Origin: the human T2T-CHM13v2.0 reference genome, Homo sapiens
Strand: one strand, 5' to 3'
Length of the DNA: 64,000 nt
Assembly: GCF_009914755.1 (NCBI RefSeq)
Contig: NC_060940.1
The notes under the pieces are model-generated. The model saw only the letters and a program-made list of their open reading frames with translations, ran no database searches and was not told where the DNA came from. Positions 707 through 3,606 of the stretch are shown piece by piece. Positions within the stretch are counted from its first letter, which is position 1, and each line of letters opens with the position of its first letter. The position numbers were made by a program, and so were the translations under genes.

Positions 707-902
707 CTCATTTTTGCTTTGTTCCTTCTGTCAGTCTTAGTAAAGGGTCCTGGAGTCAGAAGTTGCTGGGGCTTTCTTGGTTTCAGTGTCTACTTTTTAT
801 TTAAGCCCATGGGTTTGGGAACAGGGTCCCACCACAGCACTTCACTGGGCACCTCCTGATCCTGGCCATGTGTCCTAAAGTCTGGCAGTTCTTGCATGTT
901 CT
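707..902 (-). pseudogene. FAM90A-family zinc-knuckle exon relic
   Basis: After the acceptor ctcaacccacag, the minus strand reads RTCKNCQTLGHMARIRRCPVKCCGGTLFP (C-x2-C-x4-H-x6-CP). After a frameshift it continues MGLNKK*TLKPRKPQQLLTPGPFTKTDR. This parallels recalled FAM90A1 LKCKNCGAFGHTARSTRCPMKCWKAALVP..KENLKPWKP..NPGPLNKDK. In-frame TAA at 801-803. Confidence 0.8.
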
Positions 903-1275
903 CTGTGGGTTGAGGAGCAGGGAGGTCAATGAGTTAGCAGCAATCACAGGTGGCTTTCAGAGGTTCTTGTGAGGATATATTTTTGGATTTGGGTATTGGT
1001 TTTTCAGGACAGAAACAGACAAGTGGCCCATTAGGTGTCTGGAAATTCATAATGCAAAGTCATATCCACAACTTATTGTAAACAGAAACACAGAGAGAAA
1101 GAACCAGAGCATGCAAAGTTGATGATGATAATCCAGCTGAATGGGTCAGCTTAGATCATGGATGCTGAGCAGACTCTACAGATCATAGTGGGGCTCCCAG
1201 GGTGACTGAAGGGGAATGAGGTAGAGGGAGAGTTTCCCTCTTCAGCTGGACTTTTTGCTGCCTCAAAAATTCAGT

Positions 1276-1336
1276 TGATTGGGTTAGCTTTACATATGAT
1301 CTAATCAGTCCAATGCAGTCACATTTGATCTAATCA
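1276..1336. promoter_or_regulatory. Cluster of three double-homeobox (DUX-type) motifs
   Basis: TGATTGGGTTA at 1276-1286 (reverse complement TAACCCAATCA, matches DUX4 TAAYYYAATCA). TGATCTAATCA at 1297-1307 and again at 1326-1336. The motifs are seen directly; binding is inferred. Confidence 0.6.
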
Positions 1337-1928
1337 TCTCCCCCACTTTCAAGCTAGGAAAGGATATTTTATTTGGTGTTTATTTTTTCTCTGCATTATT
1401 ATCTTATCACATATGCCTACATCTAATATAATGAACTATAATTTGATATTTGTCATTTCCAAGCATTTGAGAAATTATAACATCTGTGTGTACAATTTTA
1501 ACACTACATATAATTTTCTTCATGTGCAAAATATATATACACATGTCAATATGTGGTCTGTCTAATTCTGCATCTTGAAATCTGGGCAGGGTCTTAAATA
1601 CTTCTAGGTGGGTATTGGAGCACAAATCAGATAAGCATAAGTTCCTTGCATTCCTGTTCCTGTGCCCCCAGCTTTGAATTCCTGCTTATTAACACGATGA
1701 TGGGGCTCTGCAAGTCTCCCCTTATCTGTATCTAGGTCCCCAGGGCATTCACTGATGGAAAAATTTCTTACTGAGGTCATGATGAGTGGCAGGAGGGAGC
1801 AGTCTCTTCAGCCAATAGGACTGACCCATGTCCAGCTTAAGGGCTTAGAAAAGCAGGTTCACAAGAACAACCTGCACCTGATTCTGGGCATGTGAGAGAG
1901 AGCAAGCACCTTTCACTGGAGCTTCACC

Positions 1929-3606
1929 ATAGGATGGGGAACTGAAGACCAGACTCCCACTGCCCCTCCATCCAATGCCCCATTGACCCACCTTTTTTCC
2001 AACAGGTCTCCTTTACAGAAAGGGGCTTGGATAAGGAGGAAAGACCATCAGAAGAAAAGATAAGACACTCTCTTCTCATTCCAGTAAGAGCCACATGCAA
2101 GGCAAGGTAAGGCCTTTGGCTATTCCTATGGAGGTTGGCAAGAGGGGTAGAATTAGGGATACTGATCTGTGTCTTTGGTGGGGTTTCATTTTGAGATTAG
2201 AAATGGAAAATGACTTATAGTCATCAGAGAGATTTCAGAAATATGGCGATCATCCCCTGGAATTCTATGCTTCCCATTCACACTCGACACTGGTGAACAG
2301 CCTTGATTGAGAGAATGACCCACAAATATGGGTCAAGTATAGACTTTGCAGCTCTGTGCCTAGGAAGAGATGAGTCACCTAAACTTTCTTTTGCACTGAG
2401 ATCAGAGCCCAATTCAAATGAGGAAGAGAATTCCAAGGAAACTAAACTCAAAGTCAGAAGCAGCACTGCTAAATTATGTAAGATGTGACTCTTCCAAGGT
2501 GAGAAGAGATAGTGGATGGGTAAACACAGTCTCCTCTGGGAAGGGAACTGGGAGCTCTTTGGCATCCAGGTTCTTATAAATCTTGGACTCTGGAGAACAG
2601 AGAAGAACCGAGTTTTGGTGGCTACCTCAGCTCTGGTGTGTCCAGGATGGACTAGAGTGCCTAAGGTGTTCAGTTGGAGGCAGTCACTCAAACTCCCATT
2701 TTATCCACAGAATCAGAGTCCAGCTCAGATGGGGGAACTCTAGGAAGAGAGAAATCCATTCCATGGACAGCTGCCAAGATAGAGCAGGTAGGATCTTGCT
2801 TTTTTGTTCCAAAGGGCAGATAAGCAGGTTATTTATACAGAGATTGAGCAGGAAAGGGGTTTCTCAGTGGCTGAGAGGATTTTAGAGATCCTGACATCCA
2901 GAAAGCATTTGGGGTCCCAGGAGGGGTTTAGCCTCCCTTGCTTAGGGAGACAGAGGGGGCAGGGAAGGAGGAGGAAAGACAAGTGGGGTTCACCTGAAGG
3001 TGCATGGGGACATTCTGGGAATGAGCATCCATGGGAGCTGTTCTGGTAAGTCTCTCACTCACATGCTTCCTCTTCAGGACAGCATCAAGGACATGAGCCA
3101 AAAGTGCAAAAGGACTGCTTGACTTTGGAAAAGAAACCAAAGGCCTCTGACACTGTACACATCAGTGAAATGAGGAGACCCATGATGCCTGCTGTGGGGG
3201 ACCCCCAGAGGCCCACACCGGGCACAGCGAGCGGCCCAGATCTCAGTCTCTAGGAGACCACCCACTACCACTTCAGAAAAGCCTGGTGACCTCTCTGCAC
3301 ACTCCATCTGAAGCCATTTATCACAACACAGCCCAGGTGTGGGAACAGTAGGCCTATTCTCTGCTGACCTGGGAGCAGCTGTCTGAGCTCACCTGGCTCC
3401 AGGGGCCTCTGTGCTGTGGTACAAACCTGTGCCATGGCCACCCAGGTGGCCTATGTCTTTCGCACTGAGGGCTGGCTCATCCCAGCCATACTCCCTGGTC
3501 CCTAGGGTGGAGAAGCTCAGAACTCTTCCTAGGAAGAAAATGGATCCACCCTTTCCCTGGAGAGGAGATAAAGGAGCCTGTTGGTGGATCAAATGAGGCT
3601 TTAGCT
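1929..3606 (+). pseudogene. Unprocessed FRG2-family pseudogene (4 exons)
   Basis: Exon 1 1929-2106 (start is [28 protein letters not shown]; donor GTAAGG). Exon 2 ~2398-2477 (SEPNSNEEENSKETKLKVRSSTA; donor GTAAGA). Exon 3 2711-2787 (NSRKREIHSMDSCQDRA; cag/gtagg). Exon 4 3078-~3606 ([36 protein letters not shown]...[23 protein letters not shown]). All collinear with recalled FRG2 protein. Several frameshifts and stops. Confidence 0.92.

What the first reader, a model, noticed from the sequence alone, without database searches (positions are those of the whole stretch)
707..3606. Candidate fossil DUX-driven bidirectional module: FAM90A-like <- triple DUX motif -> FRG2-like
Seen: a FAM90A-type knuckle exon (minus) and a four-exon FRG2-type gene (plus) point away from each other about 1 kb apart. 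Between them, in DNA with no recognisable repeat, are three 11-bp double-homeobox motifs within 61 bp. Known: FRG2 is a reported direct DUX4 target; from recollection, FAM90A genes are also induced in DUX4/cleavage-stage programmes. Inference: this is an old head-to-head unit of two zygotic-genome-activation gene families sharing one DUX element. It may predate the subtelomeric FRG2 and 8p23 FAM90A expansions, and could still fire non-coding transcripts in 8-cell-like or FSHD cells.
Basis: partly seen in the sequence, partly recalled or inferred. Interest (0 to 1): 0.82.

Follow-up and report, generated by a model that had tools for sequence, protein, structure and literature searches.

The report
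Decayed FAM90A–FRG2 pair sharing DUX sites
This stretch is an old, broken copy of two neighbouring genes (a FAM90A-type and an FRG2-type gene) that point away from each other and still keep between them the three DUX4 docking sites known to switch on FRG2, which suggests that both gene families started as one DUX-controlled pair.

Summary
A FAM90A-type zinc-knuckle exon (minus, 902-712) and a four-exon FRG2-type pseudogene (plus, 1929-3606, transcribed as lncRNA LOC107983990) lie back to back. Three double-homeobox motifs sit at 1276-1336.

The motifs are not a new element. They align column for column with the three DUX4 sites of the FRG2 promoter, which were validated in print by ChIP-seq and reporter mutagenesis.

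The evolutionary reading is largely supported. The same head-to-head pair occurs at seven human loci: chr16 twice, chr18, chr21, chr19p12 and chr19q13.4 twice, the last two beside V1R genes. FAM90A1 and all 56 chr8 FAM90A units keep a relic of the FRG2-type DUX box, in divergent orientation, about 1.1 kb upstream of their ATG exon (shown for FAM90A1 and one chr8 unit). This lineage split from the FRG2 clade long before the subtelomeric FRG2 copies arose (K2P about 0.33 against 0.05 or less).

The functional reading is not shown:
- Both genes here are dead.
- The FAM90A copy has no detectable first coding exon.
- Sites 2 and 3 carry G at motif position 2.
- The annotated lncRNA start (1168) lies upstream of the motifs.
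- Motif conservation is only modestly above background.
- No occupancy or expression data could be consulted.

Verdict: a new member of a known kind, with a useful evolutionary link. Interest is moderate.

The parts
167..238 (-). FAM90A-type middle exon relic
   Evidence: Aligns with the 88-bp segment that a chr2 processed copy joins between the knuckle exon and the terminal exon. It also aligns with the chr19p12 copy. CAG acceptor at 241-239.
712..902 (-). FAM90A-type zinc-knuckle exon. The CCHC knuckle is intact, an in-frame stop lies at 803-801, and the donor reads AT instead of GT.
   Evidence: PF15288 at 35.2 bits. 55.6% identity to the FAM90A1 frame. In the 10-copy alignment the CAG acceptor is shared by 9 copies; the chr2 processed copy reads AAG there.
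1150..1420 (+). FRG2-family promoter block (DUX box and flanks)
   Evidence: Aligns with 13 other FRG2-type promoters at 78% mean column identity. A profile built from it finds the chr19q, chr12 and chr8 FAM90A upstream relics and nothing else in 209 kb.
1276..1286 (-). DUX site 1, TAACCCAATCA (full consensus)
   Evidence: In register with FRG2 site 1, the site whose destruction abolished the reporter response. The pattern is kept in 12 of 14 aligned copies.
1297..1307 (+). DUX site 2, TGATCTAATCA (G at motif position 2)
   Evidence: In register with FRG2 site 2. The pattern is kept in 3 of 14 aligned copies. It reads TAACCTAATCA in chr19q, FAM90A1 and chr8.
1326..1336 (+). DUX site 3, TGATCTAATCA (G at motif position 2)
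   Evidence: In register with FRG2 site 3, which was dispensable in the reporter. The pattern is kept in 1 of 14 aligned copies, this one.
1168..4269 (+). lncRNA LOC107983990 (NR_171680.1), with exons 1168-2106, 2711-2787 and 3078-4269
   Evidence: Hub annotation table. Its internal exon borders are FRG2-type splice sites.
1929..2106 (+). FRG2 exon 1 coding equivalent. The start codon reads ATA, there is a 1-bp deletion, and the local ATG at 1934 runs into TGA at 1943.
   Evidence: Four-way alignment with chr4 FRG2.
2399..2477 (+). FRG2 exon 2 equivalent, skipped by the RefSeq lncRNA
   Evidence: PF15315 at 18.4 bits, below the cut-off. Alignment with chr4.
2711..2787 (+). FRG2 exon 3 equivalent
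   Evidence: Alignment with chr4, with acceptor and donor kept. This is lncRNA exon 2.
3078..3606 (+). FRG2 exon 4 coding equivalent, broken by frameshifts and stops
   Evidence: PF15315 at 67 bits for 3169-3351. The own-genome scan gives 96 bits with 2 TGA and 1 TAG inside.

Best explanation
The region is a decayed copy of an old divergent gene pair.

The two genes:
- On the minus strand lies a FAM90A-type pseudogene: knuckle exon 902-712, middle exon 238-167, and a terminal exon left of the window. It has no detectable first coding exon.
- On the plus strand lies an FRG2-type pseudogene. It is still transcribed and spliced at FRG2-type junctions, as lncRNA LOC107983990.
- Between them is the FRG2-family promoter. 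Its three double-homeobox sites are the counterparts, by descent, of the three sites through which DUX4 activates FRG2.

History (inferred). A FAM90A/FRG2 head-to-head unit with one DUX box existed beside V1R genes before the present families expanded.
- The FRG2 clade (4q, 10q, 3p, 3q, 20, 22, chr16 pericentromere) lost everything left of about 1160.
- FAM90A1 and the 8p23 FAM90A units lost the FRG2 exons but kept part of the box.
- The chr16p11.2, chr18, chr21, chr19p12 and chr19q13.4 copies kept both sides.

Mechanism (inferred, not shown for this copy). When DUX4 is present it binds site 1 (full consensus) and perhaps sites 2 and 3. It opens chromatin and starts transcription towards the FRG2-like side, at an FRG2-type start near 1790, giving a spliced non-coding RNA. 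On the FAM90A side this copy can at most give cryptic non-coding transcripts. In intact FAM90A genes the relic box plausibly accounts for the reported DUX4 induction of FAM90A1.
For: Shown here:
1. Pfam and DNA homology identify both pseudogenes.
2. The three motifs align in register with FRG2 sites 1-3. Those sites were defined by ChIP-seq and by deletion and point mutagenesis in PMC4364343 (passages).
3. The head-to-head pair is present at 7 loci.
4. A profile of 14 FRG2-type promoters finds the upstream regions of the chr19q FAM90A27P-type genes (E 4e-13 and 6.6e-8), of FAM90A1 (3.1e-6) and of the chr8 unit (1e-4, twice). The hits are always in divergent orientation, and there are no other hits at E<=10 in 209 kb apart from the chr19p12 copy and the chr4 FRG2 promoter itself, both expected. 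With the chr19q rows added, the values become 6e-10 and 1.3e-8.
5. The relic motif with its flank occurs exactly 57 times in the genome: 56 on chr8, matching the 56 chr8 knuckle hits, plus FAM90A1. The reversed control gives 0.
6. The tree has three deep lineages separated by K2P 0.32-0.37. The twin copy differs by 0.049, and the 4q, 10q, 3p, 20 and 22 copies are 0.05 or less apart by path length on the tree.
7. A chr2 processed copy joins the three FAM90A-type exons at their splice sites, so this gene lineage was once transcribed and spliced.

From print: FAM90A1 rises 5.5-fold (12 h) and 11.8-fold (24 h), and FRG2 7.9-fold and 10.2-fold, after DUX4 transfection. FAM90A1 is flagged there as a target already reported by Geng 2012 (PMC5323140 tables).
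Against: - No occupancy or expression data could be consulted for this locus. No paper names LOC107983990.
- The RefSeq start at 1168 lies 108 bp upstream of site 1, so the annotated RNA does not start where a FRG2-type, DUX-driven RNA would.
- Sites 2 and 3 read TGAT where the consensus has TAAT. PMC4730607 (passages) reports a ZSCAN4 motif with a substituted A in the first TAAT as inactive.
- Among six lineage representatives the sites are only modestly better conserved than the 740-bp promoter background (0.86, 0.79 and 0.885 against 0.69). That many 11-bp windows do as well or better: 85, 197 and 53 of 730. The 61-bp cluster ranks 194 of 680. Retention by descent alone is therefore not excluded.
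- The FAM90A first coding exon, present in FAM90A1, chr8 and chr19q, was not found here or in the chr18, chr21 and chr19p12 copies.
- Pfam does not see a knuckle in chr18, chr21 or chr19p12.
- The two chr19q FRG2-like exon relics at 56.506 and 56.592 Mb show no promoter block or FAM90A part within the 10 kb fetched.
- The FAM90A1 relic E-values are for a 209-kb database that I chose. Scaled to the genome, the first profile would be borderline (about 0.05).
- The tree has no outgroup. Polarity rests on parsimony.
Confidence: 0.6

Rival explanations
1. Silent fossil. The pair and the motifs are what the best explanation says by descent, but this copy no longer responds to any double-homeobox factor. 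The motifs persist by chance, and the lncRNA comes from an unrelated DUX-independent start at 1168.
For: - The annotated start lies upstream of the motifs (hub table).
- Both genes are dead.
- Motif conservation is only modestly above background.
- Sites 2 and 3 depart from the consensus at position 2 (PMC4730607 passages).
- In the 95%-identical twin copy, site 3 has already drifted out of the pattern.
Against: - Site 1, the site essential in the FRG2 reporter, is a perfect consensus here and fits the pattern in 12 of 14 copies. Among the six lineage representatives its changes fall on the degenerate positions, apart from one fixed-position change in the 4q/10q copies; the chr16:38.72M copy, not among them, also changes position 2 within the TRAY pattern.
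- This is the only one of 14 copies with all three sites fitting the pattern.
- DUX4 is reported to activate all annotated FRG2 copies through these sites (PMC4364343 passages).
Confidence: 0.3
2. Chance juxtaposition. The FAM90A-type exon and the FRG2-type gene were brought together by pericentromeric segmental-duplication shuffling and then copied as a block. The DUX sites belong to FRG2 alone, and the similarity upstream of FAM90A1 and the chr8 units is spurious or convergent.
For: - Five of the seven paired loci lie in duplication-rich pericentromeric or p-arm regions: chr16p11.2 twice, chr18, chr21 and chr19p12.
- The direct pairwise match of the chr19q relic to chr8 and chr12 is weak (E 0.022 and 1.1).
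- The two chr19q FRG2-like exon relics have no FAM90A part nearby.
Against: - The paired loci fall into at least three deep lineages (K2P about 0.33, and 61-65% identity to chr19q), so the junction is old.
- Profile hits upstream of FAM90A27P-type, FAM90A1 and chr8 genes are significant, in the predicted orientation and place, and have no stray hits.
- The chr19q pair sits in euchromatic 19q13.4 next to intact V1R frames.
Confidence: 0.1

Closest known systems
FRG2 / FRG2B / FRG2C promoter with three consecutive DUX4 sites (Thijssen et al. 2014, PMC4364343)
   Same: There are three sites in the same order, spacing and orientation, in homologous flanking DNA. Four exon equivalents lie downstream with the same splice borders.
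   Different: - About 29% diverged, and the coding frame is destroyed.
- Site 1 is a better consensus match than in 4q/10q.
- Sites 2 and 3 carry TGAT first halves.
- A FAM90A-type gene lies upstream, where the 4q copy has an inverted D4Z4 unit (PMC4364343 figure legend).
- DUX4 response is untested.
FRG2 lncRNA paralogue family, 14 copies reported in T2T-CHM13 (PMC12242771)
   Same: A transcribed, non-coding FRG2-type locus in pericentromeric chr16.
   Different: - The hub table names no FRG2 pseudogene here.
- My genome scans list more FRG2-type places than 14, among them this copy, its twin and the chr19 relics.
- This lineage is much more diverged than the chr16:38.6-38.9 Mb copies.
- I did not see that paper's figure or supplements, so whether this copy is among the 14 is open.
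FAM90A family (FAM90A1 on 12p13, the 8p23.1 units, FAM90A27P-type genes on 19q13.4)
   Same: The knuckle exon shares its CAG acceptor. The middle and terminal exons are colinear.
   Different: There is no first coding exon, the donor is lost and there is an in-frame stop. The distance from the box to the knuckle exon is about 375 bp here, against about 1.7 kb in FAM90A1 and chr8 and about 4.5 kb in chr19q.
DUX4-induced pseudogene and lncRNA loci such as DUXAP8/9 and H3.Z (PMC12776069, passages)
   Same: A pseudogene copy of a DUX4 target that keeps the target's regulatory sites and lies in poorly mappable duplicated DNA.
   Different: Induction is shown for those loci and not for this one.

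Membership tests
FRG2 family (Pfam PF15315) | Match to the family profile above the curated cut-off | tested here: met
   67 bits against a cut-off of 27 for 3169-3351. 96 bits in the own-genome scan.
FRG2 family (Pfam PF15315) | Four-exon gene structure with the FRG2 splice borders | tested here: met
   Alignment with chr4 FRG2 shows donor 2106, acceptor and donor 2711/2787, and acceptor 3078. Exon 2 lies at about 2399-2477 (hub table).
FRG2 family (Pfam PF15315) | Open reading frame | tested here: not met
   ATG reads ATA at 1929-1931, and there is a 1-bp deletion. Exon 4 holds 2 TGA and 1 TAG. It is therefore a pseudogene member.
FRG2-type DUX4-responsive promoter | Three consecutive DUX4 sites in register with those mutated in the FRG2 reporter | tested here: met
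   Alignment A1 compared with the primer sequences in PMC4364343.
FRG2-type DUX4-responsive promoter | DUX4 occupancy and DUX4-dependent activation | not testable with these tools
   No ChIP or RNA data are on hand. No paper names the locus.
DUX4 consensus site TAAYYYAATCA (quoted in PMC4730607 as tandem TAAT motifs) | All fixed positions matched | tested here: inconclusive
   Site 1 is fully matched. Sites 2 and 3 have G for A at position 2. The effect of that change was not tested in the passages I read.
FAM90A family | zf-CCHC_6 knuckle (PF15288) above the cut-off, homologous to the FAM90A knuckle exon | tested here: met
   35.2 bits against 22. 55.6% identity to the FAM90A1 frame. 70-71% DNA identity to the chr19q copies.
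FAM90A family | First coding (ATG) exon upstream of the knuckle exon | tested here: not met
   Found in FAM90A1 and chr8 and in chr19q (E 5e-4). No match at E<=50 in window 1-2000. The twin, chr18, chr21 and chr19p12 give only stray hits at E>=3 or none.
FAM90A family | Downstream exons colinear with FAM90A genes | tested here: met
   The middle exon lies at 238-167. The terminal exon starts about 620 bp left of the window.
Bidirectional promoter | Two transcription starts on opposite strands within about 1 kb | not testable with these tools
   Only a + strand start (1168) is annotated. The minus-strand gene lacks a first exon here.

The most novel reading that the evidence does not exclude
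FAM90A and FRG2 are sister products of one ancestral divergent gene pair that sat beside V1R genes and was controlled by a single DUX box. That one cis-element, copied with each duplication, is what makes both multi-copy families (57 FAM90A units and all FRG2 copies) respond to DUX4 in cleavage-stage and FSHD cells. The chr16p11.2 copy, with all three sites fitting the pattern, still fires non-coding transcripts there.
Probability: 0.35. Interest if true: 0.65.

Novelty: new member of a known kind. Interest (0 to 1): 0.45.

Why it matters
It ties two DUX4-induced, copy-number-variable human gene families to one inherited regulatory element. It offers a concrete cis-explanation for the reported DUX4 induction of FAM90A1: a consensus site in a relic of the FRG2-type box, present in all 57 FAM90A units.

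It also adds diverged FRG2-type loci with intact DUX motifs in duplicated DNA. Such loci can take up or misplace short reads in FSHD and embryo data sets. They may fall outside the 14 FRG2 paralogues described in print.

For this particular locus the practical weight is small, because both genes are dead.

Tried and rejected
1. I first read the long frame upstream of the knuckle (to about 1130) as FAM90A N-terminal coding, because a chr8 frame aligned over 107 aa. I rejected this. The frame is intron read-through, the exon starts at 902 after a shared CAG, and the true ATG exon of FAM90A1 lies elsewhere.
2. A frame in the FAM90A1 locus (L025 4139-4288, minus) matched the antisense of FRG2-like exon 1 (window 2061-1963) at E 1.5e-5. 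There is no DNA similarity and the order is not colinear. I treat it as spurious or as a shared ancient repeat, and leave it unexplained.
3. I looked for FAM90A remnants within 10 kb upstream of chr4 FRG2. Only interspersed repeats matched.
4. A test for purifying selection on the motifs gave only modest ranks, so I make no claim of constraint.
5. The search for cleavage-stage expression of FAM90A was badly posed. It asked for 2 of 5 terms, and none of the 20 listed papers holds FAM90A. The FAM90A27P search gave 3 papers, none on embryos.
6. Bosch et al. 2007 on FAM90A evolution is not held. What I say of it is recalled, or quoted from PMC4617960.
8. A DNA alignment is not accepted as a genome query. 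I used a single-sequence search and a pattern search instead.
9. I ran no further search on FRG2 outside primates, because that tool gives no taxonomy or genomic context.
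Full report
**What is there**

The minus-strand frame 801-956 holds a CCHC knuckle.
- It matches Pfam zf-CCHC_6 at 35.2 bits against a cut-off of 22.
- It is 55.6% identical over 45 residues to the knuckle frame of the chr12 FAM90A1 locus.

On the plus strand, 3 of the 12 pieces handed to Pfam matched FRG2. One was above the cut-off (67 bits, 3169-3351) and two below it. 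Eight pieces matched nothing.

At DNA level, window 1178-3887 is 71% identical to the chr4 and chr10 FRG2 loci. A four-way alignment shows the FRG2 exon borders kept at 2106, 2711, 2787 and 3078. These are also the borders of the RefSeq lncRNA LOC107983990 (hub table).

The FRG2-type frame is dead:
- The start codon reads ATA.
- There is a 1-bp deletion in exon 1.
- Exon 4 holds 2 TGA and 1 TAG.

**The motifs**

TRAYYYAATCA occurs 4 times in 64 kb, against 1.10 +/- 1.05 expected. Three of the four lie at 1276-1286(-), 1297-1307(+) and 1326-1336(+).

The DNA between the two genes is not a high-copy repeat. Window 950-1900 finds only 16 candidate places in the genome, all of them FRG2-type paralogues. 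The tool skips very common words, so this is not a complete repeat test.

**The motifs are the FRG2 promoter sites**

I aligned window 1150-1420 with 13 other FRG2-type promoters. The three motifs fall in the same columns as the three DUX4 sites of the FRG2 promoter. Those sites can be read from the mutagenesis primers of Thijssen et al. 2014 (PMC4364343, passages).

That paper reports:
- a DUX4 ChIP-seq peak at the promoter;
- loss of reporter activation when all three sites are deleted;
- complete loss when site 1 is destroyed;
- a weaker response when site 2 is destroyed;
- no effect when site 3 is destroyed.

How far the TRAYYYAATCA pattern is kept among the 14 aligned copies:
- Site 1 is a full consensus here and fits the pattern in 12 of 14 copies. 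The two exceptions are the 4q and 10q genes, with one mismatch.
- Site 2 fits in 3 of 14.
- Site 3 fits in 1 of 14, this copy.

So the cluster is a member of a known element, not a new one.

**The start site**

PMC12242771 (passages) gives 2,918 bp from start to poly(A) signal for complete FRG2 copies. Combined with the signal positions on chr4, the FRG2 start falls about 141 bp before the ATG and about 445 bp after site 3. [quoted passage not shown]

The equivalent place here is near 1790. The annotated lncRNA start, 1168, is upstream of the motifs. The annotated RNA is therefore not a FRG2-type, DUX-driven start. This paragraph is inference.

**Anatomy of the FAM90A-type gene**

- The knuckle exon runs 902-712. 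It follows a CAG acceptor shared with 8 of the 9 other aligned copies; the chr2 processed copy reads AAG there.
- The donor is GT in FAM90A1, chr8 and chr19q, but AT here and in the twin, chr18, chr21 and chr19p12 copies.
- An in-frame stop lies at 803-801.
- Among the FRG2-linked copies outside chr19q (which keeps its cysteines), only this copy and its twin keep all four knuckle ligands.

A copy at chr2:75.516 Mb joins three segments directly: the knuckle exon, an 88-bp segment that aligns with window 238-167, and a segment that starts about 620 bp left of the window. The junctions fall at splice sites. That is the signature of a processed copy. It shows that this gene lineage was once transcribed and spliced.

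The ATG exon of FAM90A1 and of the chr8 units is also found in chr19q (E 5e-4). It is not found here or in the twin, chr18, chr21 or chr19p12 copies.

**Paralogous loci**

The whole 2.9-kb query matches a twin at chr16:31.95 Mb at 95%.

Both halves, in the same head-to-head order, are found at four further places:
- chr18:14.30 Mb, chr21:12.36 Mb and chr19:21.12 Mb, at 72-75%;
- with sensitive settings, the two inverted FAM90A27P-type genes at chr19:56.36 and 56.38 Mb, at 61-65%. There the knuckle exon, the DUX block and an FRG2 exon-3 relic are colinear.

That makes 7 paired loci.

The FRG2 clade shares one left boundary at window 1160-1178 for 9 of its 11 copies and has no FAM90A part. This clade comprises chr4, chr10, chr3 twice, chr20, chr22 and five copies at chr16:38.6-38.9 Mb.

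V1R frames flank the chr19q copies, at 56.338, 56.346, 56.395, 56.503 and 56.583 Mb. This mirrors VN1R67P and VN1R3 in this window.

**FAM90A genes keep a relic of the box**

I built an nhmmer profile from the 14 FRG2-type promoters and ran it over 209 kb (loci L021-L035 plus window 5001-64000). Besides the chr19p12 copy and the chr4 FRG2 promoter itself, both expected, it found:
- the chr19q upstream regions (E 4e-13 and 6.6e-8);
- FAM90A1 (3.1e-6);
- the chr8 unit, twice (about 1e-4).

Every hit is in divergent orientation to the FAM90A gene, and there is no other hit at E<=10. With the two chr19q rows added, FAM90A1 reaches 6e-10 and chr8 1.3e-8.

These E-values are for a small database of my choosing. 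Direct pairwise matches are weak.

The relic lies about 1.1 kb upstream of the ATG exon. It holds a consensus TAACCTAATCA in the column of site 2. An 18-letter string around it occurs exactly 57 times: 56 on chr8, as many as the chr8 knuckle hits, plus FAM90A1. The reversed control gives 0.

**Age**

I built a maximum-likelihood tree of 14 FRG2-type copies (2,494 columns). I left out the partial chr16:38.74 and 38.79 Mb copies, chr19q, chr1, chr10:121 Mb and chr19:20.18 Mb.

The tree has three deep, fully supported groups:
- chr19p12 with chr18 and chr21;
- the window with its twin;
- the FRG2 clade.

The distance from the window to copies of the other two groups is K2P 0.32-0.37. The twin differs by 0.049, and the 4q, 10q, 3p, 20 and 22 copies are 0.05 or less apart by path length on the tree.

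With neutral rates of roughly 1-2.2e-9 per site per year (my own knowledge), the deep splits are of the order of 75-170 million years. This is a rough figure.

The root is a midpoint only. That the paired state is ancestral rests on two points. The pair occurs in two of the three groups and in chr19q. The box relic occurs at FAM90A1 and chr8.

In print, dogs have four FAM90A paralogues (PMC4617960). FAM90A genes lie beside defensins in horse (PMC2874809). The family is therefore older than the primates, and 8p23 may itself be an old location.

**Against a functional reading**

- Among six lineage representatives the three sites score 0.86, 0.79 and 0.885 in mean pairwise identity, against 0.69 for window 1160-1900.
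- That many 11-bp windows do as well or better: 85, 197 and 53 of 730. The 61-bp cluster ranks 194 of 680.
- Sites 2 and 3 have G at position 2. PMC4730607 reports that a ZSCAN4 motif with a substituted A in the first TAAT was inactive.
- No paper names LOC107983990.
- The searches for FAM90A with FRG2 (2 papers) and for FAM90A with DUX4 (9 papers) found no description of a shared origin or a shared element.

**For a shared response**

After DUX4 transfection of myoblasts, FAM90A1 rises 5.5-fold and 11.8-fold and FRG2 7.9-fold and 10.2-fold. FAM90A1 is marked there as a target already reported by Geng 2012 (PMC5323140, tables).

As an anecdote, FAM90A27P and FRG2 are both among the top 25 genes after actinomycin D in one cell line (PMC6828743, Table 2).

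**Verdict**

The element is the known FRG2-type DUX box in an old, unannotated paralogue. The idea of an ancient FAM90A/FRG2 pair sharing that box is well supported by paralogue comparison and appears not to be in print. Present-day activity of this copy, and any bidirectional action, remain untested.

Noticed in passing
L032 5005-5600 (chr2:75,516,004-75,516,600): A processed (intron-less) copy of the FAM90A-type gene of this lineage. It joins the knuckle, middle and terminal exons at splice sites and is 78-82% identical to the window. Its sequence upstream of the knuckle exon matches nothing I held, so the parent's first exon is unknown.
   Followed up: partly
window 1160-1178: The left boundary of homology shared by 9 of the 11 FRG2-clade copies (chr3:75.7 Mb and chr16:38.74 Mb begin further in) falls within about 10 bp of the annotated lncRNA start (1168). 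This may be coincidence, or a hint that the breakpoint and a promoter feature are linked.
   Followed up: no
window 2061-1963 (-) and L025 4139-4288 (-): A frame in a FAM90A1 intron matches the antisense of FRG2-like exon 1 at protein level (E 1.5e-5). The chr8 unit does too (E 0.002). There is no DNA-level match and the order is not colinear. Unexplained; possibly a shared ancient repeat.
   Followed up: partly
chr19:56,505,576-56,506,620 and 56,591,685-56,592,768 (L021, L022): Two further FRG2-like exon 3/4 relics lie on 19q13.4, each a few kb from a V1R pseudogene. Neither shows a promoter block or FAM90A part within the 10 kb fetched.
   Followed up: partly
genome-wide: FRG2-type places number more than the 14 paralogues described in print for T2T-CHM13. 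The extra ones include this copy, its twin, chr19p12, four on chr19q, chr1:246.57 Mb, chr10:121.2 Mb and chr19:20.18 Mb.
   Followed up: no
window 17292-17993 (-): VN1R3 keeps an open 233-aa frame. Its nearest relatives outside the twin are on chr8:43.49 Mb and at chr19:56.34 Mb (53-59% identity), next to the FAM90A27P-type genes.
   Followed up: partly
window 19737-19747 (+): The fourth match to the motif pattern in the window (TAATTTAATCA), isolated and about 1.5 kb from VN1R3.
   Followed up: no
L024 2887-7243 and L023 3028-7040 (chr19q): About 4 kb separate the DUX block from the FAM90A ATG exon in the chr19q copies, 1.1 kb in FAM90A1 and chr8, and nothing comparable here. Whether this is insertion there or deletion here is open.
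   Followed up: no
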